Positions 1-44,742 of a stretch of 44,742 nucleotides of DNA are shown piece after piece. A model generated the notes under the pieces. The model was not told where the DNA came from, made no database searches, and saw nothing but the letters and a program-made list of their open reading frames with translations. Position numbers and translations under genes: made by a program. Positions within the stretch are counted from its first letter, which is position 1. Each line of letters opens with the position of its first letter. This stretch comes from a virus, in the IMG/VR virus record IMGVR_UViG_3300037474_000089; one strand, 5' to 3'.

Positions 1-127
1 AGTAACCAAAATCTGTCGTGGTTGATAAACGATCAACGGCTGCTGTAGCTACTGCTAAAGTAATCTTAGTACGGAAAGGATCAATCACATCACCGGATTG
101 ATTTCTTAATGCCGAAATAGATGTTAA
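1..127. repeat. Terminal overlap identical to 44616..44742; circular-assembly overlap, not a biological repeat
   Basis: I compared the first 127 nt (agtaaccaaaatctg...atagatgttaa) with the last 127 nt and they are identical. The overlap lies inside the capsid ORF and keeps its reading frame. Confidence 0.9.
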
Positions 128-5075: not shown

Positions 5076-6690
5076 CGAACATACCTCCGCCTCTTTTTTT
5101 CGATGGTGAAAAAGCTATCATAACAGCATCTGCAAGATTTGGCGATGCCACTCCATCTGGAGTTTTGTCAACGATAATTTTTCCGACGTTATTTTGTTTA
5201 TAGGTTGGTCTTGATAATTCAATAGTCAACTTAGTAAGTTCTGGTAATTCTTTAGGTATACTTATGATATTATCGGGATCATATTCTGTCCCTTCAGTTA
5301 CTGCACGATGTGTATTTTGGAATCTTAATCTTAGCGACCACCACGCTTGTGCTTTTGCATTAGCGAAGAAGTCAAAATTAGTTCGGCCCTTCCCTGGGCC
5401 CCGAGCTTGTCCTTGTTTCAAATATGGGTCTTTATCTGGGTCGACAACTTCTCCAGACCCTCTGAAACCATTGAAGCGTATTTCTGATAGTTTTTGATTA
5501 TCTCGTCTTGCGTTAATAACTCTAGCGTCTCCTCTAACACCGGCACCCAGACCGTCTGCGTCATATAACACGCTAGCATAATCCAGAATATCGCATAAAG
5601 TAAAAACTTTTTCAACACTTTTGAATATGTCTTCGCCTTTTCCAGACCATGACTCAATATATTCGAGTAGTATTCCAAACCTGCCGCAGAAAGCATTTTT
5701 ATCTTTTCCTTCATCAGCAACGTCCATCCCAGCAATTCTAATGCCGGACGGTACTATATTTAACTTCTTATGGGCATCGATAGCGGATTGTACCCATGAA
5801 CTAGGAATGAGCACTCCTTCGATTGAAGCAGAATAGTCTAAATCTATCTCTTGTGCAATTACTACTGGATCATCGAGTTGCTCGCATATTCTTTTGTACC
5901 AAGCATCATTTTTGCGAGGATCATCTCTCCAATGCAAAGTGAATACTGATACTTTTCCAGACCATCTTTTTTGAGCAAAAGGGTTATTCATGCCTCTGGG
6001 GGTGCTGATATCAATCCTGCAATTCGTGGTGTTAGATAAAGATGCTTCAACGGAATTTGGTCTTGGCAACCAAGCCGCCTCATCTACAAAATAAATAGCC
6101 CGTCGATCTCCTCGTCCAATACCGTCGCCCGCTTCACCTGACATAATTGCATTCGTGCCAGGAAATGAAATCCTCATGTGTGCGCAATGCTTTCTCTTAT
6201 CCCATCCGTTCTTAAATTCTGGAGGAAGAAGGTTTATGAACTGTCGTGCTTTTTCGAAGATAGATTTAGGGTCGCCACGTTGATCTACATATTCTTCTTT
6301 TCTGCTTCCGAAACCAATTGCCATGCCGTCGTAGAATAAGCACATGGTACAAGCGAAAGCCACTGAGAGCCAGCTAAGCCCCATATCTCGGCTCTTATCG
6401 CTAATTCCTCTCTCTCCTCCTTTCCATTTCTCCATTGCCCACTGCACCCATTCTTCTTGTTTAGGGAATAATAGAAACGGCACATTAGCAGGAAGTCCTC
6501 TTTCGACATTTCTTGGGTCGCTAGTGCACCCCCAATCGATTATAAATTGAGAAGGATTTTCTTTGTAGAATAGTTTTAAAGCAGATAGTGATTCTGGTTT
6601 CTTACGAAGATTATCAAGGCATTCCAATCTATGCTGAAATACCTTGATGTAATCTGGGTTTTTGAAATCAAACTCAAAAGGGATTGGCAT
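5062..6690 (-). CDS. terL: Terminase large subunit
   Basis: 542 aa. The N-terminal ATPase region contains [13 protein letters not shown] and [13 protein letters not shown], followed by a C-terminal nuclease region. It lies upstream of the portal gene. Confidence 0.88.
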
Positions 6691-6905
6691 TACTCAGCCT
6701 TATCAGCTTCCTCTTTTGCTTTTTGTTCAGCTTCAAGTTTTTCTCTTTGTAACTTAGCATGAGAATCTTGAATAGAGGAATTCAATTTACTACGCACGGA
6801 GTCTACATACTTTTGCGGCAAATTGATGCTAGCTTCGTTTATTAATGTTCCGATTTCTTGCAATAAGCTAAATTTAAGTTCAACAATAAAATCATTATTA
6901 TCCAT
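6690..6905 (-). CDS. Small coiled-coil protein translationally coupled to terL; possible packaging accessory or small terminase
   Basis: Its TAA stop shares one base with the terL ATG (TAATG at 6688-6692). RBS is GAGGAAAAT. The C-terminus is Lys/Glu-rich. Confidence 0.5.
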
Positions 6906-6936
6906 ATTTTCCTCGAAAATAGTTATTTATACACCT

Positions 6937-6965
6937 ATTATATACCATCTATAGATTAGAGTCTA
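6937..6965 (-). promoter_or_regulatory. Sigma70-like promoter for the packaging/head operon (TAGACT-17-TATAAT)
   Basis: On the minus strand the -35 is 6965-6960 and the -10 is 6942-6937. It lies just after the stop of the upstream fibre-cassette ORF. Confidence 0.4.
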
Positions 6966-7484
6966 CTAATAAACTTCAAGTATTGAAGAAATTGAAGTTA
7001 CGCCTGTTCCTGAAGCCATCAAACGATAAGTAGCTCCGGCTGGAACAAAAAAACTCAAAGTGTTAGATGCTCCCGATAAGGCCAATGCTCCTAACCCCCA
7101 TTGAGCGATTGTCACGTACCCGGAACCAGTGTCGACTTGAGCCGTAATAAGACTGCTTTGTAATACAGTAATAGAAATACCAACAAGGGCATTGACATGG
7201 GAATCCTTACTGACACTTGGAATACGCGGAGAATTAAATGCGGGGCTACTAACTGAATGAATAGTTTTATTTGCTGGGGGTGCACCACTGAGTGTAGCCC
7301 AATACATCCACTCTAAATCAGTATTATCGCTATTTGGAGCTGAGGTACAAAACCAAAGAGTATTATTTACATAATTTCTCCAAAATATACCATATTGTAT
7401 AATACCATCCCACGGTTCTGAAGCACCTGGATTATGGTCTGCCGTTAAACCGCCACTGTACCAATCGTATGTTGGGTTAGCCAT
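6966..7484 (-). CDS. Fibre-cassette protein, unknown (172 aa), possibly receptor-binding/adhesin
   Basis: Last ORF of the fibre cassette. It is Trp/Asn-rich at the N-terminus and Ser/Gly/Thr-rich in the C-terminal half. Confidence 0.4.
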   Translation of the reverse strand: MANPTYDWYSGGLTADHNPGASEPWDGIIQYGIFWRNYVNNTLWFCTSAPNSDNTDLEWMYWATLSGAPPANKTIHSVSSPAFNSPRIPSVSKDSHVNALVGISITVLQSSLITAQVDTGSGYVTIAQWGLGALALSGASNTLSFFVPAGATYRLMASGTGVTSISSILEVY

Positions 7485-7496
7485 TTTTTAAATCCT

Positions 7497-7961
7497 CTAT
7501 CCTATGTATCTAACAAAAAACCAACTGATGTAAGGCGCATTGCCCCCCGCAATTCCTACGGAGGCCGTACTTCCATTATTCAATTGGGCTGACATACTCA
7601 AAGTGTCTCCTGCCGCGGCAGTAACTACATTCATTCCATTTGTGCAAAAAGTATTGCTGAGTGTTTTAGAAGCGGTTGTTGCATATTCAGATATTCGATA
7701 CGCAAATCCACTTTGATTTAAAGTTGCAAGATTTCCATTTGCGCCATTTATTATGGTGGTATATTTAAAAGAGCCGCAAAGTAAGTAATTTCCGGCTACT
7801 GGAACTGTATATAAACCTGTTGCTGTATTGTAACCAGACCCAAATAAAACAGTGTCAAATTTAATGACATATGTTGTCCCATTTCCAGTCACGTTTGATA
7901 CGGGCGTATTTAAATAAGCAAACATTGCCGGGACTGTATCCCTAATTAAAATACTTGTCAT
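7497..7961 (-). CDS. C1q/TNF-like jelly-roll domain protein, paralog 3
   Basis: I prefer the start MTSILIRD (ATG 7961). The stretch FAYLNTPVSNVTGNGTTYVIKFDTVLFGSGYNTATGLYTVPVAGNYLLCGSF ... AAGDTLSMS ... ISWFFVRYI follows the C1q globular-domain pattern F-x5-N-x4-Y-x6-F-x5-G-x-Y-x-F. Confidence 0.7.
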   Translation of the reverse strand: MTSILIRDTVPAMFAYLNTPVSNVTGNGTTYVIKFDTVLFGSGYNTATGLYTVPVAGNYLLCGSFKYTTIINGANGNLATLNQSGFAYRISEYATTASKTLSNTFCTNGMNVVTAAAGDTLSMSAQLNNGSTASVGIAGGNAPYISWFFVRYIG

Positions 7962-8398
7962 TAAAATAACCTCGTTGCTTGACACCATCCAAATACCCCT
8001 GCTACTTGGGTAGATCCTGATATCTGTAAAGTAACAGTAGCTGTATCGCCTGCTGCCATTGGCGCAATAACATATCCCGCTATAGATGAAACAACTGCCT
8101 GACTTCGTATTGCGCCGACATTATAATTAGCAAATGTAAATGTTCTTTGAGTAGTTACTAAATTACATATAGCATTTGTCATTGATGAATTCGTATTTGA
8201 AAAACTAGGGTAATTGCAAAATAAAAAGACTCCTGCAACAGTGCACGTAAATACTCCAGTTGCAATAACGATACCAGAACCCTGAGATAATGTATTGTAA
8301 ACATAAGTGTATACAGTACCATTCCCTGTAACGTTGGCTACACCAGATTGAACTACAACAAATCTTTGGGCAGTATCAGTGCTTACTATATTAGTCAT
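7961..8398 (-). CDS. C1q/TNF-like jelly-roll domain protein, paralog 2
   Basis: MTNIVSTD...ANVTGNGTVYTYVYNTLSQGSGIVIATGVFTCTVAGVFLFC...AAGDTATVTL. Its start overlaps the upstream stop as TAATG. Confidence 0.7.
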   Translation of the reverse strand: MTNIVSTDTAQRFVVVQSGVANVTGNGTVYTYVYNTLSQGSGIVIATGVFTCTVAGVFLFCNYPSFSNTNSSMTNAICNLVTTQRTFTFANYNVGAIRSQAVVSSIAGYVIAPMAAGDTATVTLQISGSTQVAGVFGWCQATRLF

Positions 8399-8847
8399 TA
8401 TGGTAGCCTCACTATTGATAAAGTGCTTAAAGTATCAAAACTTAATGTTTTTGTACTTCCACTTATCAGTATATTCCATTGAGCCGTATCATTAACCGCC
8501 ATTCTTACTGGTACAACACATGGTGTAAGGGTAGTGGAATTAGAGGGGTTACGGTAGTTACCTATTCTAAATTCGCACGTTTGAAAACTTCCCCCAGTTG
8601 CTACTAGGGTTGCAGTACAGAAAGTAAAAGAAGCAGTCAAATTGCTAATTTGGACTACTGGAGTAAATAAATAATCTCCAGCTACTGGACAAGTAAAAAC
8701 CCCTGTGCTCGTATTATATCCGCTACCATAAACTACGTTATTCCAAACCAAAGTGTAAACTGTTCCGTCTCCAGTAACGTTAGTTGCTGCAGATGTAAGT
8801 GTTGCAAGTAAACTAGTATTTGATGAACCATTTACAATATTAGTCAT
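8398..8847 (-). CDS. C1q/TNF-like jelly-roll domain protein, paralog 1
   Basis: I prefer the start MTNIVNGSS (ATG 8847-8845), which overlaps the fibre gene stop as TAATG. Sequence includes TNVTGDGTVYTLVWNNVVYGSGYNTSTGVFTCPVAGDYLF. Confidence 0.7.
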   Translation of the reverse strand: MTNIVNGSSNTSLLATLTSAATNVTGDGTVYTLVWNNVVYGSGYNTSTGVFTCPVAGDYLFTPVVQISNLTASFTFCTATLVATGGSFQTCEFRIGNYRNPSNSTTLTPCVVPVRMAVNDTAQWNILISGSTKTLSFDTLSTLSIVRLP

Positions 8848-11800
8848 TAAGCCACCGTTAAGTTTAAACCAGCTGCAGGATACACTACCCATAAACCAGA
8901 CGCTTCGTCAGTTAATGTCGCACAATCAACGGCTGATCCAACGGTTGAAGTTAGAGTACTTCCAGCTGCTCCTAATGCTCCCATAAACTGTATCTTGTCC
9001 GTACCATTAGCAGTTATCTTCCATCCAGAAGTACTTGCCGTAGTGAGAGACACTAAAACTATTTGTTTCCCGCTACCAGTAGCCGCAGGTAATGTGTATG
9101 CACATTGGCCGCCAGAGTAATTATTAATATAACGAGTATTGACTGCCATTGCTTGGCTTGAACCTGTAACTACTACTCTTGCAGTAATACCGTAACTAGG
9201 AACGCTGGTAAACGCTCCACTTCCGTCTGTAGCTACGATAGAAGAAGCACTTACTGAATTTACATAGAACTTACCTAAAGAATCAGCAGTCCATGCAGTA
9301 ACCCACGATATCGTGCTACCTTGTGCAACTCCGGCTTCACATTCTAATACAAATAAATCAAAGCTTTTGTTAAGTCTAAAGTTACTTCCACCACTATAAG
9401 ATGACCTAGAAAAAGTTCCATCAAAATAACAATCAAAATTTAAGTATTGTGTACCGTGCGCATAAGCTACAAGGTTAACTAAGGGAAATCCATCGGTTTG
9501 CGTATATAAATTTATCGAACTGTTTGTTGTTGTATTATTACCGACAATATTTAATCTTGCAGCTTGAGTTAAAGTAGGGGGAGCAACTGAGTTCAACATT
9601 AACTGCGCTAAATCAAAGCTACCTCCACTAGCAGTGGTGATCGTGCCACTAACTCTCGCCATTATTGTGTTATCAGTTACAAATGGAATATCGATAGCAC
9701 CAGCGGCTTGCATTTGAAAACCTATTGCTGGAACGATCGGTGTTCCTGCGCTTCCACTGGTAGCGCTCTTAAAGAATATTCCGCTTGGTCCAACTTCAAC
9801 AGTAAATGCATTACCTGTTCCGTTGAATTTATAGGTAGCTAAACCTCCATCCCAATCTAAATTGTAAGATAAGAATCCCGTTCCTGCCGAAGTAACACCA
9901 ATATTACGTCCTGAACCACCTAAGCTAATGTAATCTCCATCGGATAATACAGGAGCAAAAATCATAGGTGCTACGGTTCCCAATAGAGGCCCGCCACTTC
10001 CACCATTGTTAAAAGTCAAGCCACCTAAAGTATAGAAACCAGTAGCACTATCAACATTTCTTCCAGAATCAACGGCCAATAAAGAACTGTTATTAGTTAG
10101 GTATGGCAACTGAATAAAACCATCATTCTTAAGAAGAAAGCTAGTACTTAAAGATGCTGTTGCACCCCCTACTCCGCTCTGTTGCCTTTTTAAAGCAATC
10201 CCAGCCGAACCAATTTCAGCGACAAAGACATCTCCAGAGGATGATACTTGGTAAGTAGCAATGCCTGCATTGTAATTAGCATTGTACGTTAGGAACATTA
10301 ACCCTGTTTGGAAACCAATGTTTCTACCAGAACCTGCTAAATTTAGAAGGTTACCTGCGCCATAATTTGCGCTAAATGAAATAGCTGGTGTTGTAGTATT
10401 TAATGCTGAAGAACTAGTTCCTAGTCTTAGGGTTTCTAAATTACCGCCTTGGGGAATGGTCACTCTTCCTGCGGAGTCTATCTCCATGCCGAGCGTAGTG
10501 CTTATTATATTACCTTGAGCTCCAGTACCATATAGGAAGTTAAGATGACCTGAGCTTTTATTAATTTGCCAAGCGATAGCACCCGTTGATGCGCGAAGAA
10601 ATGACCCATCATAGTAGCAGTCAAAATTTAAATCGATACTATCGTGATTTAACGGCGAAATATTCAACAAGGGATAATTGTCAGTATCATTATACCAATT
10701 TTGCGCATTAGCCCCCGCGGTTCCGGCTGCATACAGATTCAACATTTTTGGAGAAACTAAAGACGTTGGGGGTGTTATACCAAAGTAAATTCCCGAATCT
10801 CCCTGTTTCACGAATCCAGATAGCGCTAAACCTGAGTCTTGTAACTTACCTCCAACTGTGTTGAAAGTAGCCACATTGCCAACAACTACTGGGAGCGCAT
10901 TTACGTTTTGAAAAGTTGTTCCGCCATCTTGGCTGGCATACCAATTCAATGCACCTTGTGCAAGATTATCGGTAGACGCAAATCCCCCAAATTGGGAAGT
11001 ATCTAATATGGTTACAGCTCCACGTAAGATGACAACTGGATCTGCTGTTGCGCTATCGTTTGATATCCAGAATTGAATTGATTCACTTGGCCCCGTGACT
11101 GGTAGATTATAAGTCAAGCTTATTTCTTGAGGTCCTGGTGCACCACCCGGATCTAAGGTAACCGTAGTGATTGCAGGAGTAGTGAGCGATGGGCTACCAG
11201 CGATTACTAAGTAAATCGAATATGTTTGAGTAAGCACGCTTGATGTTCGAAGAGTGAACACCGCGTCAACTTTTATCTGTCTCAAAGCGGCTGTCAGAAA
11301 ATTGACATTGAATGAATCTGCAACTAGCGTTCCGTTAAAATTGTTCTGATAAATGACATGCATGTTATCAGATAGAATGGGGGTAGCGGTGAAGGGAGCT
11401 GAGAACACCGTGTCCATTGCGTTATTAGATATGTAAAAATTGCATTGTCCTGACGTAACGGCAGAAGGGCCGCTGGTAGCAGCGATAGCAATTGTACCGT
11501 CCCCATTATTGATAATGCTGACATTCGCTCCAGGTAGAACTTTACCAACCGTTAGCATGTTTAAAAACTGAGTGCCGTCCCATTGGTCGACACTTTGGAA
11601 ATCTGTGTTGTAAACCATTAAACCGCTGTCAGTAAGATCTAAAGTTGTGCCTAAGGCACTTTCATCAGTCACACTCATTCTAGGGAAAGGGAGTGTTCCC
11701 TGGGTAGTAGAATCTACTTGGAACGAAGCATTGGGATTTGCTGTCCCCATGTTTATTCCAAAAGTACCATTTATAAAATTCAAGTTCCCAGCAGAAATAT

Positions 11801-11933
11801 CAATCTGCTTGGGGGATGAATTATCATATGCAACTTGCAGGGAGACCGTAGTCGGTGGGTTGCCGCCAGTGGCCACGTGGAATACTTCACACCATGTTAA
11901 GAACTCTGAGGCTGTTATCATTGGGCTATCCAT
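8847..11933 (-). CDS. Long tail fibre / receptor-binding protein (1028 aa) with internally repeated modules
   Basis: Gly/Ser/Thr/Asn-rich. Repeated segment GSGRNIGFQTGLMFLTYNANYNAGIATYQV... matches GSGRNIGVTSAGTGFLSYNLDWDGGLATYKF.... A second pair is YPLLNISPLNHDSIDLNFDCYYDGSF and FPLVNLVAYAHGTQYLNFDCYFDGTF. Confidence 0.7.
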   Translation of the reverse strand: MDSPMITASEFLTWCEVFHVATGGNPPTTVSLQVAYDNSSPKQIDISAGNLNFINGTFGINMGTANPNASFQVDSTTQGTLPFPRMSVTDESALGTTLDLTDSGLMVYNTDFQSVDQWDGTQFLNMLTVGKVLPGANVSIINNGDGTIAIAATSGPSAVTSGQCNFYISNNAMDTVFSAPFTATPILSDNMHVIYQNNFNGTLVADSFNVNFLTAALRQIKVDAVFTLRTSSVLTQTYSIYLVIAGSPSLTTPAITTVTLDPGGAPGPQEISLTYNLPVTGPSESIQFWISNDSATADPVVILRGAVTILDTSQFGGFASTDNLAQGALNWYASQDGGTTFQNVNALPVVVGNVATFNTVGGKLQDSGLALSGFVKQGDSGIYFGITPPTSLVSPKMLNLYAAGTAGANAQNWYNDTDNYPLLNISPLNHDSIDLNFDCYYDGSFLRASTGAIAWQINKSSGHLNFLYGTGAQGNIISTTLGMEIDSAGRVTIPQGGNLETLRLGTSSSALNTTTPAISFSANYGAGNLLNLAGSGRNIGFQTGLMFLTYNANYNAGIATYQVSSSGDVFVAEIGSAGIALKRQQSGVGGATASLSTSFLLKNDGFIQLPYLTNNSSLLAVDSGRNVDSATGFYTLGGLTFNNGGSGGPLLGTVAPMIFAPVLSDGDYISLGGSGRNIGVTSAGTGFLSYNLDWDGGLATYKFNGTGNAFTVEVGPSGIFFKSATSGSAGTPIVPAIGFQMQAAGAIDIPFVTDNTIMARVSGTITTASGGSFDLAQLMLNSVAPPTLTQAARLNIVGNNTTTNSSINLYTQTDGFPLVNLVAYAHGTQYLNFDCYFDGTFSRSSYSGGSNFRLNKSFDLFVLECEAGVAQGSTISWVTAWTADSLGKFYVNSVSASSIVATDGSGAFTSVPSYGITARVVVTGSSQAMAVNTRYINNYSGGQCAYTLPAATGSGKQIVLVSLTTASTSGWKITANGTDKIQFMGALGAAGSTLTSTVGSAVDCATLTDEASGLWVVYPAAGLNLTVA

Positions 11934-12124
11934 TGAGAAATGTTAGTAACGTCGCTCCCATTGTACGTAAAGGTCTGCACATAAACAGTATCAAGACCTG
12001 TCTGCACGCTTGCATAGGTAACTGATATTGTTTGAACGTTTGACCCTGCGTATGTAAAAGTTGTTTCCAACGAGCTTAGGGGTAATTGGGTACCGTCTGA
12101 TGCGGTAACTGTTTCGGTAGACAT
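11918..12124 (-). CDS. Small fibre-associated protein (68 aa) with a tandem repeat
   Basis: TFTYAGSNVQTIS and TFTYNGSDVTNIS are repeated. The gene overlaps the fibre gene start by 16 nt. Confidence 0.4.
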   Translation of the reverse strand: MSTETVTASDGTQLPLSSLETTFTYAGSNVQTISVTYASVQTGLDTVYVQTFTYNGSDVTNISQWIAQ

Positions 12125-12128
12125 TTGA

Positions 12129-12560
12129 CTAACTCCCTGTTGTCATTATCTGTTCGTATATCTTACCCGCTTCTACGGGATCAGTGGTAGTTATTTTTAA
12201 CTCAATGGGCGAATTTTTATCCGTTTTGATCTTTGCGTCAAGTTTTAAACTGCTTTCGGATAGCCATTTCGCCTTTCGTTCTAGATAAAACAATATGCAC
12301 TTAGTGTCGCCTTGTTCTACCTTTTCTAAAAACTTATTTACTACAAATTCTAATAGCTGACTCCTGCCTTTTTTTATTCTTTTACTTATCTCTGGGTATT
12401 TCTGTTTTGTATGATACCAACATGATTTTTTTACGCCAAAATAATCTCTTATCTGTTCCTGGGTAAACTGTTTTCTAGCCAATGACTCAACTTTGTCCAA
12501 AAACTCCTCAGTCATTTCTATTGCAGGTTTAGGACCAGATTTTTCTTTCTTCTTAGCCAT
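12129..12560 (-). CDS. HTH DNA-binding protein, terminase small subunit-like
   Basis: FTQEQIRDYFGVKKSCWYHTKQKYPEISKRIKKG...CILFYLERKAKW resembles small-terminase/gp3-type HTH proteins. It is the first gene of the late block and has an RBS AGGAGGA. Confidence 0.45.
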   Translation of the reverse strand: MAKKKEKSGPKPAIEMTEEFLDKVESLARKQFTQEQIRDYFGVKKSCWYHTKQKYPEISKRIKKGRSQLLEFVVNKFLEKVEQGDTKCILFYLERKAKWLSESSLKLDAKIKTDKNSPIELKITTTDPVEAGKIYEQIMTTGS

Positions 12561-12579
12561 GTTAAATCCTCCTGCCTAA

Positions 12580-12608
12580 ATTATACCCTTCCTTCCTCCT
12601 ACAGTAAA
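12580..12608 (-). promoter_or_regulatory. Sigma70-like promoter for the late block (TTTACT-17-TATAAT)
   Basis: On the minus strand the -35 is 12608-12603 and the -10 is 12585-12580, about 20 nt upstream of ATG 12560. Confidence 0.4.
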
Positions 12609-12614
12609 CACGTA

Positions 12615-12938
12615 CCCGAAGCAGTCGTAATCCCCGAACGTTTTTTGTTTAGTCCATTCGTTCGGTCTTATATCTATCTTATTGTTTTTATTAATAATAT
12701 TAATATATTGGACTGAAGGACTGAATGAATAACATTGCTCCCAGAAATCTATACATAGTATACATTTTATGGTATATTGTATAGCGTATACATGTACGTA
12801 TAACCATGTATAGATTTATGTAAAGGAGTTTTATGGATTTCGTTCGGATTTTGGTAATACAAATCGCTACAACCCACGTCTACCAAGGGATGCCCGAGAA
12901 CTGGAGCAAATTTTGTCCGTTCGGGCTTGTTCGGGCTT
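12615..12938. repeat. Repeat-dense intergenic hub with iteron-like CGTTCGG copies and several other short repeats
   Basis: CGTTCGG(G) occurs at 12632-12640 (inverted), 12659-12665, 12841-12847 and 12918-12925. GTTCGGGCTT is a tandem pair (12919-12928, 12929-12938). TATTAATA occurs twice (12689-12705), GGACTGAA twice (12710-12725), and TATACAT three times direct (12750, 12759, 12787) plus once inverted (12806-12812). Confidence 0.7.
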
Positions 12939-12978
12939 AAGTCCAAATGTTTGATGAATTAAAATGAGAGGAAACAAG

Positions 12979-13245
12979 ATGATATCAAAAGATTACGCCA
13001 TGTGCAATAAGTTAATTACTTACGATGATTGTCGTCCGTGCTACAGGAATCATCCGCCCCAGAGATATACTAAAACCGGAAAGTGTGTATATTGTCATCG
13101 TGAGAAAGCTAAAATAAACAGAAGGTCTCTCAATCAACATAAAGCTCACGAGCTTGGATTAGTCCAGATGGAGGTATTAGTACATCCAGACGATGTTGAA
13201 ACGGTGAAATCCCTGATTAAAGCTCTTAGAATTGACAGGATGTAG
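12979..13245 (+). CDS. Small Cys-rich (CxxC...CxxC) protein, unknown function
   Basis: I prefer ATG 12979, preceded by GAGAGGAAACAAG. The sequence contains CRPC...CVYC. The track ORF starts at 12964. Confidence 0.5.
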   Translation: MISKDYAMCNKLITYDDCRPCYRNHPPQRYTKTGKCVYCHREKAKINRRSLNQHKAHELGLVQMEVLVHPDDVETVKSLIKALRIDRM

Positions 13246-13277
13246 TATACTAAACTATCAATCATAGGAGGTTTACC

Positions 13278-13454
13278 ATGAAAGACCGACCCAAGAAAGA
13301 TAGCCAAAAGTTTTTTAAAGAAATAAAACAGGAGCATCCAGAAGTCTCTATGATACAAACTACAACGGTCACCGTGAACATTGATCAAAAGGATGATTGC
13401 ATGACCGGATGTTTCAAAGCGTTATCTGATTGTTTTAAACGCAAAAGTAGTTGA
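13278..13454 (+). CDS. Hypothetical 58-aa protein
   Basis: Strong RBS ATAGGAGGT 8 nt upstream. Sequence begins MKDRPKKDSQKFFKEIKQEHPE. Its TGA stop lies inside the -35 box of promoter P1. It falls below the 60-aa threshold of the ORF track. Confidence 0.5.
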   Translation: MKDRPKKDSQKFFKEIKQEHPEVSMIQTTTVTVNIDQKDDCMTGCFKALSDCFKRKSS

Positions 13455-14834: not shown

Positions 14835-15025
14835 AATGAATCGATTGCTCTACACAGTTGGTCATGTACATGGTCAAAACAATCTGTACATATATCTTCG
14901 TATTTGAACCTTTCTTTGAATACTGCAACTACTGACATTGCAGCGCCCGTTTTGGGCGCATACAATAGTTTTGCATCTCTAGATTCTTTCTTACATAGAT
15001 CACACTTGTAAATGGTTATCTTCAT
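14813..15025 (-). CDS. Small Cys-rich (zinc-finger-like) protein, 70 aa
   Basis: CDLC...CTDC. ATGA-type coupling to the primase-helicase gene. The C-terminus LKVVDKL is encoded by promoter cassette P3. Confidence 0.5.
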   Translation of the reverse strand: MKITIYKCDLCKKESRDAKLLYAPKTGAAMSVVAVFKERFKYEDICTDCFDHVHDQLCRAIDSLKVVDKL

Positions 15026-17346
15026 GCTTGCGAGTCCTTATATGCTTTAACGATTTCTTTGGGATCTTTCAGTTCACAATCTTCATGGTTGGTTCGTATG
15101 TACAGTCTTGGCTTCGTACTTTCTCCTGCCATAACCGTAGGAGTCCTACCTTCTTTAAGATGCGGGTGCCAGTCGTATCCAATTGACTTAAGAAGTTCAC
15201 GTCTCTTATTACGTGCAATCCTCTTATCAGCTCCAATATCTTTAAGAAGTGCATCAAATGCGGTAGAGCAAATCCATCCTCCTTTAAAACCAACACGTTC
15301 GGATTCAACCGCTTCAAGAATTTCATGCTCCACTCTACCAAATCCATGTTCGATTGCAGCTTCAGTACTTGAGGTTGACGGTGCGCGCGAGCATTTAAGA
15401 GGGTTAAATTCATCTTTAATAGGGTAAGAGAGTAAGAAGTCTGCAATGGCTGCGTATCCACCGTTCTTCGCCCAGTTATAGAGGTCAGGACAGTATGCAC
15501 CCATCATCCCATCGCGATGTAAATCTTCAACTGATTGTTGCGGCGTATAGAAGATCGCAAATCGTCGATCATCTTTAGACTTACGAAGAGCATCCTTATG
15601 GTTCGTGTTGATGATATAGTTGCAGCAAATGTCTTTCATGGTTTTCTTCTTGCCTTTGCCTTCGACCATTTGTCTCTCGAGGTCAAGCATTGGCTTTAGG
15701 GTTTCCATGATTTCAGCACGTGAATCAGGATAATAAGCGTCTTCAATTGATACAAATATGGCGCCATCTGCCCAATCGTTGAACCTACTAGCTATTTCAT
15801 CCGCGCGAGGAAACTGTGTATATCGATCGCCTATAATATAAGATATGACTCTTGAGAAGAAAGTCTTACCGTTCCCTTGGGTGCCTTGCAATACTATACA
15901 CCATTTAAACTTCTTACCTATAAACTGAACTAACGCTGCTAAATAGCTTAAAATAATATCTTGGTCGCGTTTATTAGGAAAAAGCTTTTCAACATGGTCT
16001 AAGAATAATGATACGTCCCCTTTCTGTCTAACGCACTGATAAGGCCAATATGTATTAACAACCAGTTCACCATCTTTATTGTATACGTGTCCAGATTCCA
16101 TATCCGGTTTGAATGTACAACTGTTCACTCTAGTAAACTTAACTGCTGTTGAAAGAGTGAAAGCTTCCCAAGCTTTATTGGTAGTCTTGGCATTCTCACC
16201 GCTAGTTACGAAAATATAACCGCCATACATTACATTGAACCGTTCTCTATCCAACAGATATCCCCCGGGGACAAGTATCATGTTTTCATGACATACGTAC
16301 ACGCACCCCCGAAAGTGCTCTAACTGCTCTTGAATGGTCATAAAACCGCTCCCACTCGTGCCAATTATTTGACTAGGAGTTTCAGTCTTGGTAACATTCT
16401 GTTTAGTTTGTTTCGAATAAACGTTTGAACACTTACCGCGGGCGCTCCTGATCGTTCGCGGTAAATAATCCTCGCGATCCCATTTGTCTCTAGCCAACTT
16501 TGATTGTCTCATTAAGCTCAACATTCGCTCTGCGTTACATCCAGTCCAGAAAGCAAGATGCTGCGCAAGAGCTGCATCAGCACTAGATCGGTTATAAGTG
16601 TCAGAATCATGTGGATATGACTTAGCTAATACTTCTTCATTGTTTTCCCAAAGATCAGCAAAAGTCGCGCCGTCGTGCCCAAATTTCGATCTGTTACTTT
16701 TAGAAGCTAACGCCATACGGATTAGTTCATTGTCATCTATGGGCCCGTTATATTCGGGCAAAGGTTCTGTAGACCACCACTCTTTCTCCGTGGGAGTTGA
16801 AATAGTTGCTTGCAAATAGGAGGTAGATATTTCCTTAAGTGCTTCGGTACAATCTATGCTGGCGTCACCTGCTGCATGTATGCCAGTTAGCGCAACAAAA
16901 CGTTTGGATGTATAAAACTCTAAACCGAGTTTATCATTTCTGCACCCGTGGTTGAAGTCACTGCATTTACCTATAATGTGCAAACCTTTACCGGATGCTG
17001 AAACTTCCACAGCGGCACCAGCTAGTTTCTGTAAAAGAGTTTTTGACAAATCAGACCATCCAGCTTCAGGTTCGTAACAAGAATCGATGTCTAATAAGAA
17101 GAATGGATCGGACTCAGTAAGAACGAATCCGACTCCATAAGACTCACCCAAACGCTTTGAGGCTGACGAAGCTGAATCAAAATCAGTCCAAATGGTTGAA
17201 TCATGAGCATCCCAAGTCTGTCCATTCTGATAGTTAACAGGTCTTTTGATCTTCTTGTTAACATTAGTTGGATTATTGGTTATTGAATAAACTATAAATT
17301 GATGATAATTTTTAAGTGCATAAAACGCCGTTGGTAATATATCCAT
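15022..17346 (-). CDS. Bifunctional primase-polymerase (AEP) / SF3 helicase replication protein
   Basis: N-terminal motifs FFLLDIDSC and SASGKGLHII are AEP prim-pol motifs. The C-terminal Walker A is VLQGTQGNGKTFF. Length is 774 aa. Confidence 0.85.
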   Translation of the reverse strand: MDILPTAFYALKNYHQFIVYSITNNPTNVNKKIKRPVNYQNGQTWDAHDSTIWTDFDSASSASKRLGESYGVGFVLTESDPFFLLDIDSCYEPEAGWSDLSKTLLQKLAGAAVEVSASGKGLHIIGKCSDFNHGCRNDKLGLEFYTSKRFVALTGIHAAGDASIDCTEALKEISTSYLQATISTPTEKEWWSTEPLPEYNGPIDDNELIRMALASKSNRSKFGHDGATFADLWENNEEVLAKSYPHDSDTYNRSSADAALAQHLAFWTGCNAERMLSLMRQSKLARDKWDREDYLPRTIRSARGKCSNVYSKQTKQNVTKTETPSQIIGTSGSGFMTIQEQLEHFRGCVYVCHENMILVPGGYLLDRERFNVMYGGYIFVTSGENAKTTNKAWEAFTLSTAVKFTRVNSCTFKPDMESGHVYNKDGELVVNTYWPYQCVRQKGDVSLFLDHVEKLFPNKRDQDIILSYLAALVQFIGKKFKWCIVLQGTQGNGKTFFSRVISYIIGDRYTQFPRADEIASRFNDWADGAIFVSIEDAYYPDSRAEIMETLKPMLDLERQMVEGKGKKKTMKDICCNYIINTNHKDALRKSKDDRRFAIFYTPQQSVEDLHRDGMMGAYCPDLYNWAKNGGYAAIADFLLSYPIKDEFNPLKCSRAPSTSSTEAAIEHGFGRVEHEILEAVESERVGFKGGWICSTAFDALLKDIGADKRIARNKRRELLKSIGYDWHPHLKEGRTPTVMAGESTKPRLYIRTNHEDCELKDPKEIVKAYKDSQA

Positions 17347-31582: not shown

Positions 31583-31824
31583 TTCTTTTCCTCCTTTTTG
31601 GTGGATTTTCCAGTTAGATGTAGGTTTATGCCAAACCCTACGGCCATAGCCGTACATCCACTAGCAAACTCCATTGCGGTCCATCCATGGCCTAAAAATG
31701 CATTGTAGAAAGCAAGCATGTAATAAATAGTGAAGCTCATAGCACAAATTATTCTGCCATTGTCGAAACTTTCATTATCGTGGGCGGTAATGCTATCTTT
31801 AAATATTTTAAATAAAACATTCAT
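31579..31824 (-). CDS. Holin-like two-TM protein (81 aa)
   Basis: Two hydrophobic segments and a charged tail KSTKKEEKK. It lies directly downstream of the endolysin gene. Confidence 0.55.
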   Translation of the reverse strand: MNVLFKIFKDSITAHDNESFDNGRIICAMSFTIYYMLAFYNAFLGHGWTAMEFASGCTAMAVGFGINLHLTGKSTKKEEKK

Positions 31825-32318
31825 ATCATAGCCCTCCTTATCCAGCCTTCTAAATTTTTAAGTTGCTTTCGATTTATACTAACACGGTTAAGGTAAAACT
31901 TCACTAGCTCTAGCCGTAGATGGTCTACTATATGACATTCTGGTAATTTATTTACCATCTGTACTGTTCTACTACCGAATACCCCATCTTCCGCTATGCT
32001 GTTGTTGATTCTATTAATTGCTTTTTGAACACAGGTTGCTGCCGAAGATGGCGATAGATTAACGAAAATTAGCAGTAACTGAGTTGATACTAAAGAACTA
32101 TTGATATCATTTAGTTTGTATTTTAACCAAAAATCATGGTAGTAAATATCGATTGCTTTATCTATTTGAAGAGTCTTGATGTCTAACTGAGGATATGATC
32201 TTTTACTTATTCCGAAATTTGTTTCGCCGCCGGGATCATCGGGGTCATTGACGTACCCTCCTTCCATCTGAAGGAGAACCCCGATTGCCTGTTTAAAATT
32301 TAAGTCTTTATAATCCAA
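31821..32318 (-). CDS. Endolysin, glycoside hydrolase family 108 with a PG_binding_3-like C-terminus
   Basis: QMEGGYVNDPDDPGGETNFGIS is the GH108 signature. The C-terminal part contains DGVFGSRTV. Confidence 0.85.
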   Translation of the reverse strand: MDYKDLNFKQAIGVLLQMEGGYVNDPDDPGGETNFGISKRSYPQLDIKTLQIDKAIDIYYHDFWLKYKLNDINSSLVSTQLLLIFVNLSPSSAATCVQKAINRINNSIAEDGVFGSRTVQMVNKLPECHIVDHLRLELVKFYLNRVSINRKQLKNLEGWIRRAMI

Positions 32319-33166
32319 TTCATCACCAATGATGGTTGAATATTATTATGTGGCTGCCCTGCACCCCCAACAACCCCACCTGTTTGGGTCACTGGGCCAC
32401 CAGTTTGCCATACTCTTGGTTGGCTATTCCCTGCGCTTATTTTAAATGGGCCAGAAATATGAAAACCAGGTACTGTTTCATGAGTGTGATCTCCATTTTG
32501 GGATGGGGTTAAAGCTACGTTTTCTGCGCCTCCAGTTGCACCAATCGTATTGGGTAACGTAGCACTTCCAGTACCACCAGCCCCGACAATAACTCTTCGT
32601 GCGGTAAAAGGTAAATTGAAAGTAGTTGACCCGTCTCCGGCTCCATAAGCAGTGCCTATGGCAGCAAATAATGCAGCATAAGTTGTTCTACTTACCGCAG
32701 TTCCATCACAGAACAAATAGCCGCCTGATGGCAATACTGATCCAGCAAAAGGTAATACTGATCCTGCCGGTATAGGATTACCGCTGACCACTTGCCACGA
32801 TGGGTCACTTGGGAGAGCGGTGTTACCTTGCACCTGATTTTCATATATTTTAAAACCAGAACCATCATCATATCTAACGTATGCATAAAGATCGTATGCA
32901 AAAGCACTTCCCAAATTATCAGCCGTCGTGATGAAATCGGGAGTTCCATGGGTCTGATATTGTCTAATTGCATCAGTTATGTCGTAATATAATTGATTAG
33001 TTTGATCGCGAGGAATTGGCAACGCATTAGGATCAGTGTCTAAATCTAATCCATAATCTGGCCCCCATCCTTCATTATAACTAACAGAACCGCTACCCTG
33101 GGTTGGTTCTGGAATAGCAGTTTTATCTCCTGCGACAGCAAATGGGTATACAAAAAACTTAGCCAT
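32300..33166 (-). CDS. Short tail fibre with phage tail-collar domain
   Basis: GSVLPFAGSVLPSGGYLFCDGTAVSRTTYAALFAAIGTAYGAGDGSTTFNLP is the collar-domain signature. The gene lies after the baseplate genes. Confidence 0.8.
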   Translation of the reverse strand: MAKFFVYPFAVAGDKTAIPEPTQGSGSVSYNEGWGPDYGLDLDTDPNALPIPRDQTNQLYYDITDAIRQYQTHGTPDFITTADNLGSAFAYDLYAYVRYDDGSGFKIYENQVQGNTALPSDPSWQVVSGNPIPAGSVLPFAGSVLPSGGYLFCDGTAVSRTTYAALFAAIGTAYGAGDGSTTFNLPFTARRVIVGAGGTGSATLPNTIGATGGAENVALTPSQNGDHTHETVPGFHISGPFKISAGNSQPRVWQTGGPVTQTGGVVGGAGQPHNNIQPSLVMNWIIKT

Positions 33167-44331: not shown

Positions 44332-44742
44332 CTAAATACTAGAATATCGAACAACTGCCCATGGGCGTTTCAGCATGATGCCAGCTGACGCATTGGAATA
44401 GTCTTCAATATATCCTTTTGCTAATTGTTGTACGCCAAGTACGTAAAATTTAGCAGGAACAATTTGCATGAAAGTTTTACCGTTGTCGGTAGAACGATCT
44501 TGAATTGAATCTGCATATAAGTAGAACACATTTGCTCCACCATTAGCTGCGTTCAATTCAGGAGCAGATACTACTCGAACCAAAGGATACGTTTCTTTCA
44601 ACCATTGCATTACAGAGTAACCAAAATCTGTCGTGGTTGATAAACGATCAACGGCTGCTGTAGCTACTGCTAAAGTAATCTTAGTACGGAAAGGATCAAT
44701 CACATCACCGGATTGATTTCTTAATGCCGAAATAGATGTTAA
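44332..44742 (-). CDS. Major capsid protein, C-terminal part (continues from 1..811 across the circular junction)
   Basis: ...DPFRTKITLAVATAAVDRLSTTTDFGYSVMQWLKETYPLVRVVSAPELN.... It is in frame with the 5' window part. Confidence 0.75.
   Translation of the reverse strand, partial: LTSISALRNQSGDVIDPFRTKITLAVATAAVDRLSTTTDFGYSVMQWLKETYPLVRVVSAPELNAANGGANVFYLYADSIQDRSTDNGKTFMQIVPAKFYVLGVQQLAKGYIEDYSNASAGIMLKRPWAVVRYSSI
44616..44742. repeat. Terminal overlap identical to 1..127
   Basis: See the first feature. Confidence 0.9.

What the first reader, a model, noticed from the sequence alone, without database searches (positions are those of the whole stretch)
7497..8847. Three tandem, translationally coupled C1q/TNF-like jelly-roll genes
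Three diverged paralogs of 145-154 aa each carry a C1q globular-domain-like pattern (...NVTG(N/D)GT.Y...(F/W/Y)(D/N)....GSG(Y/I)....TG.FT.PVAG.Y(L/F)...). Each starts with MT(N/S)I and overlaps the previous stop as TAATG, so the fibre and the three C1q genes form one coupled chain. C1q-like heads trimerise and bind ligands. Three different heads behind one long fibre suggests interchangeable or hetero-trimeric receptor-binding tips, or host-range expansion by gene duplication.
Basis: partly seen in the sequence, partly recalled or inferred. Interest (0 to 1): 0.65.

Follow-up and report, generated by a model that had tools for sequence, protein, structure and literature searches.

The report
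Three split C1q-like tail-fibre heads
An uncultured phage encodes three small C1q-shaped proteins right behind its long tail-fibre gene; this trio is kept in the same order in at least 14 related phage lineages, so it is probably the fibre's detachable host-binding tip and could be a three-subunit head like human C1q.

Summary
On the minus strand, three paralogous genes follow a 1028-aa fibre gene: A 8398..8847 (149 aa), B 7961..8398 (145 aa) and C 7497..7961 (154 aa). All three junctions are TAATG stop/start overlaps. The C1q/TNF jelly-roll is confirmed. An AlphaFold2 model (pLDDT 90) matches C1QL1-3, collagen X NC1 and phage fibre tips, and 41 of 71 relatives hit Pfam C1q.

New findings:
- The triplication is ancient. 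Eleven lineages resolve in a tree into three orthologue groups, always in the order A-B-C with coupled junctions. Three further lineages show the same arrangement by best match, one of them weakly. One lineage has two heads.
- The trio always travels with a conserved ~110-150-aa fibre C-terminal domain. This domain structurally resembles the CBA120 TSP4-N / T4 gp10-type assembly region.
- The fibre tip plus A, B and C is exchanged as a unit between phages whose fibre shafts are otherwise 94-100% identical.

This fits a host-recognition cassette with separately encoded head subunits. It argues against recent duplication and against freely interchangeable tips. Whether the head is an A·B·C hetero-trimer or three homotrimers is unresolved. 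C1q-like phage receptor-binding domains are already known, so this is a new variant of a known kind.

The parts
8847..11933 (-). Long tail-fibre gene (1028 aa), first gene of the coupled chain
   Evidence: ORF. Composition is rich in G/T/S/A/N and poor in charged residues. There is an internal duplication, aa 505-639 vs 645-778. Orthologues carry a precomputed Pfam PF26696 PTL_trimer hit. There is no match in cultured phages, so the 'fibre' label is an inference.
8850..9386 (-). Distal fibre segment (about aa 850-1028). The last ~110 aa (8850..9179) form a conserved all-beta tip domain ending in GLNLTVA, proposed here as the docking platform for the heads.
   Evidence: It is shared at 64-78% identity with fibres that are otherwise unrelated (L002, L091, L092). 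The recombination breakpoint against L094 lies near aa 850. In the AF2 model, residues 50-160 have pLDDT of about 77-93. The top Foldseek PDB hits are CBA120 TSP4 N-terminal residues 1-335 (E 5.6e-6, TMq 0.50-0.56).
8398..8847 (-). C1q-like head gene A (149 aa)
   Evidence: Pfam C1q E 1.5e-4, 22.4 bits. AF2 pLDDT 90.2, pTM 0.80. Foldseek hits C1QL3 at E 3e-10 with TMt 0.77. Belongs to orthologue group A.
7961..8398 (-). C1q-like head gene B (145 aa)
   Evidence: Pfam C1q E 0.011. PHROG 15750. 39% identical to A. Belongs to orthologue group B.
7497..7961 (-). C1q-like head gene C (154 aa)
   Evidence: Pfam C1q E 0.0018. PHROG 15750 E 7e-9. Belongs to orthologue group C, which has group-specific conserved stretches (NIINGANGNL, AQLNNGS.ASVGI.GG).
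8845..8849 (-). TAATG stop/start overlap, fibre to A
   Evidence: Overlapping or abutting junctions are conserved in the related loci, except L099 fibre-to-A, which has a 14-nt gap.
8396..8400 (-). TAATG stop/start overlap, A to B. A GAGG Shine-Dalgarno-like motif lies inside the last codons of A.
   Evidence: GTGAGGCTACCATAATG.
7959..7963 (-). TAATG stop/start overlap, B to C. A GAGG motif lies inside the last codons of B.
   Evidence: ACGAGGTTATTTTAATG.
6966..7484 (-). Fifth cassette gene 'g4' (172 aa), with its own Shine-Dalgarno sequence and a 12-nt spacer. Function unknown; candidate fibre-assembly factor.
   Evidence: Its N-terminal ~75-aa domain recurs after the C gene in most cassettes: BLASTP E 1e-88 to 3e-18 for L001, L093, L094, L097, L099 and L002, and weak for L098 (1e-4), L092 (0.004) and L004 (2.3). 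No hit in Pfam, PHROGs, NCBIfam or PDB, and only unannotated close relatives.

Best explanation
A, B and C are separately encoded head subunits of the long tail fibre. Each is a bare C1q/TNF-type jelly-roll with only about 11 flexible N-terminal residues and no stalk. As in other C1q-family proteins, three protomers should pack into a globular trimer. I infer that the base of this trimer, where the N- and C-termini lie, docks non-covalently on the conserved C-terminal domain of the homotrimeric fibre. The exposed loops would then bind a host surface ligand.

The fibre tip domain, A, B, C and usually the small g4 protein form one co-translated, horizontally exchanged host-recognition cassette. 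All three heads are needed together: they are ancient, non-redundant paralogues rather than spare copies. The simplest geometry is one A·B·C hetero-trimeric head per fibre, and a stack of three homotrimers is the alternative.

Shown here: the gene anatomy, the fold, the orthology, and co-inheritance with the fibre tip. Inferred: presence in the virion, docking, ligand binding and stoichiometry.

My sub-probabilities: C1q/TNF fold about 0.97; virion-borne fibre-tip receptor-binding role about 0.65-0.7; all three required together about 0.55; strictly hetero-trimeric about 0.35.
For: Fold:
- The AF2 model of A has pLDDT 90.2 and ten or more beta strands.
- Top PDB neighbours are C1QL1/2/3, collagen X and VIII NC1, Caprin-2 C1q and TNF-family ligands. 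Phage parts also match: the phi812 central spike knob and the cyanophage A-1(L) gp33 short-fibre distal domain 8KE9.
- In A-1(L), the stem plus that distal domain binds host cells (PMC10966104).
- BFVD neighbours (TMq up to 0.91) are mostly much longer phage proteins, several named C1q-domain or tail-fibre proteins.

Homology:
- All three genes hit Pfam C1q just below threshold.
- 41 of 71 relatives hit it at E<=1e-3, the best at 6.5e-12.

Tip role by homology:
- In 80 IMG/VR loci the domain most often ends a protein of about 200-790 aa.
- The stand-alone 145-157-aa form in this cassette arrangement occurs only behind fibres that end in GLNL(T/V)V(A/T) or a close variant.

Non-redundancy:
- A neighbour-joining tree gives three monophyletic groups with one member each in 11 lineages.
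- Three more lineages were classified by best BLASTP match. L097 and L098 B are marginal, and L099 g2 scores higher to A.
- The order A-B-C is constant, and stop/start junctions overlap or abut in phages with different backbones.

Cassette behaviour:
- Window versus L094: fibre aa 1-850 are mostly 94-100% identical per 50-aa block (three blocks at 76-88%). The last 180 aa are 44-60% identical, A 45%, B 51%, C 59% and g4 72%.
- Conversely, the L002, L091 and L092 fibres share mainly their last ~150 aa with the window.

Docking platform:
- The fibre tip model resembles CBA120 TSP4-N. The XD domains of TSP4-N are the T4 gp10-type modules that hold partner trimers (PMC8825819).
Against: - There is no direct evidence that A, B or C is in the virion or touches the fibre. 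The phage is uncultured and no cultured relative carries the cassette.
- The structural match of the fibre tip is moderate: TMq about 0.5, from a model built on a 7-sequence alignment with 30 disordered residues. I could not tell which TSP4-N domain it matches. If it is XD1, that domain does not bind trimeric partners in TSP4, and its fold also occurs in glycan-binding modules. The tip could therefore itself be the receptor-binding domain.
- One lineage (L004/L005/L102) has two heads, not three.
- Phage receptor-binding proteins are almost always homotrimers (general knowledge).
- Conservation by structural region showed no clean variable-apex, conserved-base pattern.
- Three of the 14 triplets (contigs 9114, 14634, 2358) are inferred from shared contig length, not from inspected loci.
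Confidence: 0.55

Rival explanations
1. Three independent homotrimeric tips (A3, B3, C3) compete for, or alternate on, the same fibre end. A virion then carries a mixture of specificities.
For: Phage receptor-binding proteins are normally homotrimers (general knowledge). All three paralogues keep a similar N-terminus, M-[TSA]-N-[ILM]-[IVL]; between-group identity there is 0.42 versus 0.14-0.27 in most strands. This fits one shared docking site. Tandem arrays of 2-5 C1q-headed fibre genes are common in other uncultured phages, with pairs at least as common as triplets. One lineage has two heads.
Against: Independent tips predict gain, loss, lineage-specific duplication and reshuffling. Instead one member of each orthologue group is kept in fixed order with coupled junctions in all 14 triplet lineages. 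No cassette with a single stand-alone head was seen. Group C keeps long group-specific loop motifs across all lineages, which is unlike an arms-race receptor-binding surface.
Confidence: 0.22
2. A, B and C are tail-fibre assembly factors or chaperones. They help the fibre C-terminus trimerise and either leave or stay as passive caps. They are not receptor binders.
For: They sit directly downstream of the fibre gene, the classical position of tail-fibre assembly genes (general knowledge). They co-vary with the fibre tip.
Against: There is no similarity to any chaperone family in Pfam, PHROGs or NCBIfam. The fold is that of ligand-binding trimeric heads, and homologues form the C-terminal end of fibre-like proteins. 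A separate small conserved gene, g4, is available for a chaperone role. Three chaperones for one ~110-aa domain would be unusual.
Confidence: 0.12
3. The proteins are C1q-like lectins with a role unrelated to the fibre, for example capsid or tail decoration, or a secreted or cell-surface factor. Their position behind the fibre gene only reflects co-regulation.
For: Structural neighbours include non-fibre virion parts, such as the phi812 central spike knob and a chain of the cyanophage A4 portal-tail complex. A neighbour of the fibre tip model is a capsid spike, Pa223.
Against: The trio is found only with one particular fibre C-terminal domain, across fibres that are otherwise unrelated and across different genome positions. 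It is exchanged together with that domain.
Confidence: 0.06

Closest known systems
Phage tail-fibre or receptor-binding proteins with a C-terminal C1q-like domain. These include 'C1q domain containing protein' entries of uncultured Caudovirales, and the C1q-domain putative receptor-binding genes in metagenomic islands of marine and cryoconite phages (PMC7468147).
   Same: Same domain family: profile E down to 1e-56 and BFVD TMq 0.8-0.9. Same genomic theme of variable, exchanged host-recognition genes. Tandem paralogues also occur.
   Different: There the C1q domain is fused to its own shaft or anchor of 40-640 aa, so the head is necessarily a homotrimer of one gene product. Here the head is a bare 145-154-aa protein. 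It comes in three fixed orthologue groups, behind a fibre that ends in a different, conserved domain.
Cyanophage A-1(L) short tail fibre gp33 distal domain (PDB 8KE9)
   Same: Structural neighbour of protein A: E 1.1e-8, TMq 0.68. It is the distal domain of a virion fibre, and the stem plus this domain binds host cells (PMC10966104).
   Different: It is covalently part of the fibre and homotrimeric. There is no sequence-level relationship.
Vertebrate complement C1q globular head (A, B and C chains; single-chain form PDB 5HKJ) and C1QL1-3
   Same: Best sequence-profile hit in the PDB (5HKJ, E 0.006) and best structural hits (C1QL3/1/2). The shared core motif is Y-x3-[ST]-G-x-[FY]-T-x-x-V-x-G-x-[YF]-x-[FL]. 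By general knowledge, C1q is built from three paralogous genes whose products form one hetero-trimeric head.
   Different: No collagen-like stalk. The window proteins fall below the Pfam gathering score. The full PROSITE-type C1q signature, as I recall it, is absent in 0 of 42 sequences. Hetero-trimerisation is not shown here. The resemblance in gene organisation is an analogy, not evidence of shared descent of the triplication.
Branched receptor-binding complexes built on T4 gp10-type XD domains (CBA120 TSP4-N and TSP2, G7C gp66, T4 gp10-gp11-gp12)
   Same: The fibre's C-terminal domain is a structural neighbour of TSP4 residues 1-335. In those systems one protein carries the platform and separately encoded trimers dock on it, with gene number and order conserved (PMC8825819).
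   Different: In those systems the platform is N-terminal and next to the baseplate, and the partners are large tailspikes with their own adaptor domains. Here the platform would be the distal end of a long fibre and the partners are minimal heads. Which XD domain is matched is unknown, and there is no sequence similarity.
T2/S16-type gp38 adhesin capping the gp37 long tail fibre (general knowledge)
   Same: A small separately encoded protein, placed just downstream of the fibre gene, forms the receptor-binding tip.
   Different: gp38 has a different fold and is a single gene. No similarity was detected here.

Membership tests
C1q domain (Pfam PF00386) | Score at or above the Pfam gathering threshold (23.7 bits) | tested here: not met
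   A scores 22.4, B 16.4 and C 18.9 bits, with partial coverage of the model.
C1q domain (Pfam PF00386) | Homology through intermediate sequences | tested here: met
   41 of 71 aligned relatives hit PF00386 at E<=1e-3, the best at 6.5e-12. Orthologues P0022-P0024 and the L004 second head (32 bits) pass the threshold.
C1q/TNF superfamily fold | Compact ten-stranded jelly-roll beta-sandwich superposable on gC1q or TNF domains | tested here: met
   AF2 pLDDT 90.2. Foldseek PDB: C1QL3 E 3e-10, TMt 0.77, followed by many C1q and TNF ligands. Modelled only for A; B and C are assigned by 35-39% identity to A.
C1q/TNF superfamily fold | Assembly into a trimer around a three-fold axis | not testable with these tools
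C1q domain (PROSITE-type signature, pattern recalled from memory) | F-x5-[ND]-x4-[FYWL]-x6-F-x5-G-x-Y-x-F | tested here: not met
   The full pattern occurs in 0 of 42 A/B/C sequences. A relaxed C-terminal half ([FYWL]-x6-[FY]-x5-G-x-[YF]-x-[FLI]) occurs in 31 of 42.
Canonical C1q-family proteins (collagen-like stalk plus gC1q) | N-terminal collagen Gly-X-Y stalk | tested here: not met
   Only about 11 residues precede the first strand and there are no Gly-X-Y repeats.
Phage fibres with a fused C-terminal C1q head | C1q domain covalently at the C-terminus of a shaft-bearing protein | tested here: not met
   A, B and C are separate ORFs with their own ATG. The fibre ends in a different domain.
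T4 gp10 / CBA120 TSP4-N XD assembly domains (for the fibre tip) | XD-type beta-sandwich or jelly-roll fold | tested here: inconclusive
   Foldseek E 5.6e-6, probability 1.00, but TMq only 0.50-0.56. The model pLDDT is 75 overall, and the matched sub-domain was not resolved.
T4 gp10 / CBA120 TSP4-N XD assembly domains (for the fibre tip) | Binds a partner trimer across its three-fold axis | not testable with these tools
   Inferred only from strict co-occurrence and co-exchange with A, B and C.
Tail-fibre assembly chaperones (Tfa / gp38 / gp57-like) | Sequence membership in a known chaperone family | tested here: not met
   No such hit in Pfam, PHROGs or NCBIfam for A, B, C or g4.

The most novel reading that the evidence does not exclude
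A, B and C assemble into one obligate A·B·C hetero-trimeric C1q-like head that caps a homotrimeric fibre. This would be a phage counterpart of the three-gene complement C1q head. Splitting the head from the shaft would be what allowed three different subunits to sit on a single-gene fibre, giving an asymmetric, combinatorially evolvable receptor-binding surface.
Probability: 0.35. Interest if true: 0.75.

Novelty: new variant of a known kind. Interest (0 to 1): 0.55.

Why it matters
Phage receptor-binding tips are treated as homotrimers encoded on the fibre itself. A conserved cassette in which the head is split from the shaft into three fixed, co-translated paralogues would be a different design for host recognition. 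If the head is hetero-trimeric, it has three distinct faces instead of three identical ones. That would be relevant to predicting host range from metagenomes and to engineering modular phage or tailocin tips. It would also give a simple prokaryotic-virus model for how C1q-type hetero-trimers evolve from tandem duplicates. If the heads are ordinary homotrimers, the finding is still a clean and portable fibre-tip-plus-heads exchange module, but of modest interest.

Tried and rejected
- DNA search of 6900-12200 against cultured phages: no match.
- tblastn of protein A and of the whole fibre against cultured phages: no match. No virion proteomics can therefore be borrowed.
- Host identification failed. 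The genome-collection scan returned only distant C1q relatives in MAGs (Parachlamydiales, Caulobacteraceae and others) and not the cassette. The first attempt, with the broad alignment, had no usable pattern. Terminase relatives at about 60% identity infect Bordetella, Burkholderia and enterobacteria, which is too distant to assign a host.
- Net charge and pI of A, B and C showed only small differences, with no clear complementarity.
- Conservation by strand and loop showed no clean apex/base or inner/outer-sheet pattern.
- Group-specific conserved columns were few.
- Fibre tip: no sequence hit in the PDB or Pfam. The protein-database search with the tip profile returned only 6 proteins because of its candidate limit. 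IMG/VR and metagenome scans added few new cassettes.
- g4: no annotation anywhere. An apparent alignment of g4 to the C1q genes is not supported by BLASTP, so g4 is not a fourth C1q paralogue.
- Promoter and terminator scan of 6500-13300: counts are not above shuffled expectation, and nothing separates the four coupled genes.
- Rejected the idea of recent duplication for host-range expansion, on the orthology tree.
Full report
**Anatomy**

All genes of interest lie on the minus strand.
- A 1028-aa ORF (8847..11933) is followed by three small ORFs: A 8398..8847 (149 aa), B 7961..8398 (145 aa) and C 7497..7961 (154 aa).
- At each of the three junctions the stop codon TAA shares its last A with the next ATG, giving TAATG at 8849..8845, 8400..8396 and 7963..7959.
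- The last codons of A and B (…R-L-P*, …R-L-F*) contain a GAGG Shine-Dalgarno-like motif about 10 nt before the next ATG.
- A fifth gene, g4 (6966..7484, 172 aa), follows after a 12-nt spacer with its own ribosome-binding site.
- A, B and C are 35-39% identical pairwise by BLASTP, with E 1e-21 to 2e-14. A against shuffled C reaches at most 23 bits, versus 59 bits observed.

The strand was not stated.

**Context**

The window is a complete circular phage genome: 44.7 kb, 38.8% GC, with a 127-nt terminal direct repeat that looks like an assembly overlap.
- It encodes a contractile-tail virion whose structural genes belong to families named after Pseudomonas phages E217 and Pa193. The window's own hits are a DUF3383 protein (which I read as the tail sheath), the E217 gp29 and gp41 families and Baseplate_J. 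The portal, Mu-F, Pa193_gp24, cement and major-capsid families were seen in the syntenic relatives.
- The large terminase is about 60% identical to those of Bordetella, Burkholderia and enterobacterial myoviruses.
- A second, short fibre-like gene with a Collar domain (32300..33166) sits next to the baseplate genes and the endolysin.
- The long-fibre chain studied here lies elsewhere, between the early/replication genes and the terminase.

No cultured phage has DNA or protein similarity to the fibre or to A.

**Fold**
- All three proteins hit Pfam C1q just below the gathering score: 22.4, 16.4 and 18.9 bits against 23.7.
- A profile of the three finds the single-chain human C1q head 5HKJ as the best PDB sequence hit, at E 0.006.
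- A database search found 95 relatives, many with a precomputed PF00386 hit. Of 71 aligned relatives, 41 hit PF00386 at E<=1e-3, the best at 6.5e-12.
- An AlphaFold2 model of A built on this alignment is confident (pLDDT 90.2, pTM 0.80) and all-beta. Only the first ~11 residues are at lower confidence.
- Foldseek against the PDB returns C1QL3, C1QL1, C1QL2, collagen X and VIII NC1, Caprin-2 C1q, adiponectin-family and TNF-family ligands. It also returns phage parts: the phi812 central spike knob, the cyanophage A-1(L) gp33 short-fibre distal domain 8KE9, and a chain of the cyanophage A4 portal-tail complex. E-values run from 3e-10 to 1e-7 and TMt reaches 0.77.
- Against predicted viral structures, the best matches (TMq 0.8-0.9) are mostly much longer phage proteins, several named 'C1q domain containing protein' or tail fibre.

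The C1q/TNF jelly-roll is therefore confirmed. The full PROSITE-type C1q signature, as I recall it, is not present; only its second half is. There is no collagen stalk.

**What is new: the trio is ancient and fixed**

I collected the same arrangement from other contigs (29/30).
- In a neighbour-joining tree of 11 triplets, the proteins fall into three monophyletic groups. Every triplet contributes exactly one member to each group, always in the gene order A-B-C.
- Three further lineages (L097, L098, L099) show the same arrangement by best BLASTP match. Their A and C assignments are clear. B is marginal for L097 and L098, and for L099 the second gene scores higher to A than to B.
- The stop/start junctions overlap or abut (TAATG, ATGA, TGATG, TTGA, or gaps of 0-2 nt) in all of them, except the L099 fibre-to-A junction, which has a 14-nt gap.
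- These contigs have different backbones. In L091, L092, L097 and L098 the chain follows other tail genes or precedes lysis genes, and fibre length ranges from 709 to 1096 aa. In L097 the tip sits on a separate 225-aa protein.
- One lineage (L004/L005/L102) has two heads, an A-like one and one that branches beside the C group.
- Three of the 14 triplets are inferred only from shared contig lengths.

Orthologues are 44-52% identical on average, while paralogues within a phage are about 30-39% identical. The triplication therefore predates the divergence of these phages. This argues against recent duplication for host-range expansion. Freely interchangeable tips would be expected to show gain and loss, and that is not seen.

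**The trio travels with a specific fibre end**
- All fibres that precede the heads end in a conserved ~110-150-aa domain (…TLPAATG.GK.I…STASTSGW…G.DKIQF…GSATDCATL…GLWVVYPA.GLNLTVA). This holds even where the rest of the fibre is unrelated: window versus L002 or L092 is 14-38% identical over most of the length but 64-78% at the end.
- Conversely, the window and L094 fibres are mostly 94-100% identical per 50-aa block through about residue 850 (three blocks at 76-88%). They then fall to 44-60%, with A 45%, B 51%, C 59% and g4 72%.

The unit of exchange is therefore fibre tip + A + B + C, which is the behaviour of a host-range cassette. C1q-domain genes next to tail fibres have already been reported as variable, co-existing receptor-binding variants in cryoconite and marine phages (PMC7468147).

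**The fibre tip**

A model of the last 160 residues was built on only seven sequences. It has pLDDT 75 overall and about 77-93 for residues 50-160.
- Its only significant PDB neighbours are the N-terminal 335 residues of CBA120 tailspike 4, a baseplate protein of Klebsiella phage KP1, and the Pa223 capsid spike (E 6e-6 to 1e-3, TMq about 0.42-0.56).
- TSP4-N consists of an anchor plus XD1-XD3 domains homologous to T4 gp10. XD2 and XD3 hold partner trimers across their three-fold axis (PMC8825819).

This makes a docking-platform role plausible. I could not determine which sub-domain is matched. XD1 does not bind trimers in TSP4, and its fold also occurs in glycan-binding modules. The tip may therefore be a receptor-binding domain itself. 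No sequence-level link exists.

**Mechanism proposed**

The homologous domain most often forms the C-terminal end of fibre-like proteins, and a structural neighbour is an experimentally supported host-binding fibre domain. From this I infer that A, B and C are head subunits split off from the shaft.
- In the C1q fold the N- and C-termini lie together at the base (general knowledge). The short N-terminal tail M-[TSA]-N-[ILM]-[IVL] is more conserved between the three groups than most strands.
- The base would face the fibre tip, and the loops would face the host.
- Tight coupling would deliver the proteins together.
- g4, whose N-terminal ~75-aa domain recurs after C in most cassettes (clearly in seven, weakly in three), is a candidate assembly factor. 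It has no annotation anywhere.

**Stoichiometry is the open point**

For a single A·B·C hetero-trimer:
- Strict 1:1:1 retention and fixed gene order.
- No cassette with a single stand-alone head was seen.
- A small trimeric tip offers only one on-axis docking face.
- Splitting head from shaft is the only way to put three different subunits on a one-gene fibre.
- C1q-family paralogues commonly hetero-trimerise (general knowledge).

Against it:
- The homotrimer rule for phage receptor-binding proteins.
- The two-head lineage.
- Pairs of tandem C1q fibre genes are as common as triplets elsewhere.

I could not run a multimer prediction. Sequence-only tests (charge, region-wise conservation, group-specific columns) were uninformative. 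I put the hetero-trimer at about 0.35, three homotrimers (alternative or stacked) at about 0.3, and a chaperone or unrelated role at about 0.2 combined.

**Verdict**

The functional reading is partly supported: 'receptor-binding tips behind one fibre' is the best reading, 'recent duplication' is rejected, and 'hetero-trimeric' remains open and is the most interesting possibility. C1q-like receptor-binding domains in phages are known. The stand-alone, three-orthologue, coupled form tied to a specific fibre tip is, as far as my searches show, undescribed. I rate it a new variant of a known kind.

Noticed in passing
window 1-127 and 44616-44742: The first and last 127 nt are identical. The window therefore looks like a complete circular phage genome assembled with an overlap (GC 38.8%).
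   Followed up: partly
window 6966..7484 (-): g4 is a 172-aa protein of unknown function. Its N-terminal ~75-aa domain (…EPWD.G.IQYG..W.N…W.C…L.W.Y) recurs directly after the third C1q gene in most cassettes, as a long (169-179 aa) or a short (76-83 aa) form. The match is clear in seven loci and weak in L098, L092 and L004. It has no annotation in any library.
   Followed up: partly
window 8847..11933 (-), fibre aa 505-639 vs 645-778: Internal duplication inside the fibre (local alignment score 195 versus 46±7 for shuffles). A second repeated module (around aa 400-490 and 790-880, motif …LNFDCY[YF]DG[ST]F.R.S…) was seen by eye only.
   Followed up: partly
window 9386 region (fibre aa ~850) versus L094: Sharp recombination breakpoint. 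Upstream the two fibres are mostly 94-100% identical per 50-aa block. Downstream (fibre tip, A, B, C) they are 44-60% identical, recovering to 72% in g4.
   Followed up: yes
window 32300..33166 (-) and 31821..32318 (-): A second, short fibre-like protein (288 aa) with a Phage Tail Collar domain lies next to Baseplate_J and DUF2612 genes. It is followed by a GH108 / PG_binding_3 endolysin. The phage therefore probably has two kinds of fibre.
   Followed up: no
window 11918..12124 (-) and 12129..12560 (-): Two small genes (68 and 143 aa) directly upstream of the fibre are conserved in position and size in the closest relatives (L001, L002, L093, L094). The 68-aa gene overlaps the fibre start by 16 nt. 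Function unknown.
   Followed up: no
L097 3642-4319: In this relative the conserved fibre tip domain sits on its own 225-aa protein, after a 722-aa fibre protein. The fibre itself can therefore be split into proximal and distal genes ahead of the three heads.
   Followed up: no
L091 7371-8522: Here the gene after the trio is a 383-aa glycine-rich-domain protein (Pfam Gly_rich_2, E 1e-8). It begins MTNIIGLSS, the same N-terminal motif as the C1q heads.
   Followed up: no
IMG/VR loci L026, L039/L040, L043, L084, L021, L011, L018, L059, L072: Many unrelated uncultured phages carry tandem arrays of 2-5 similar-length C1q-headed proteins (for example 3 x ~185 aa, 3 x ~220 aa, 3 x ~250 aa, 2 x ~240 aa), each with its own N-terminal extension. 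Whether these are hetero-oligomeric fibres or alternative fibres is unknown.
   Followed up: no
window 15022..17346 (-): A 774-aa NrS-1-type primase-polymerase / DUF5906 replication protein, conserved in the closest relatives.
   Followed up: no
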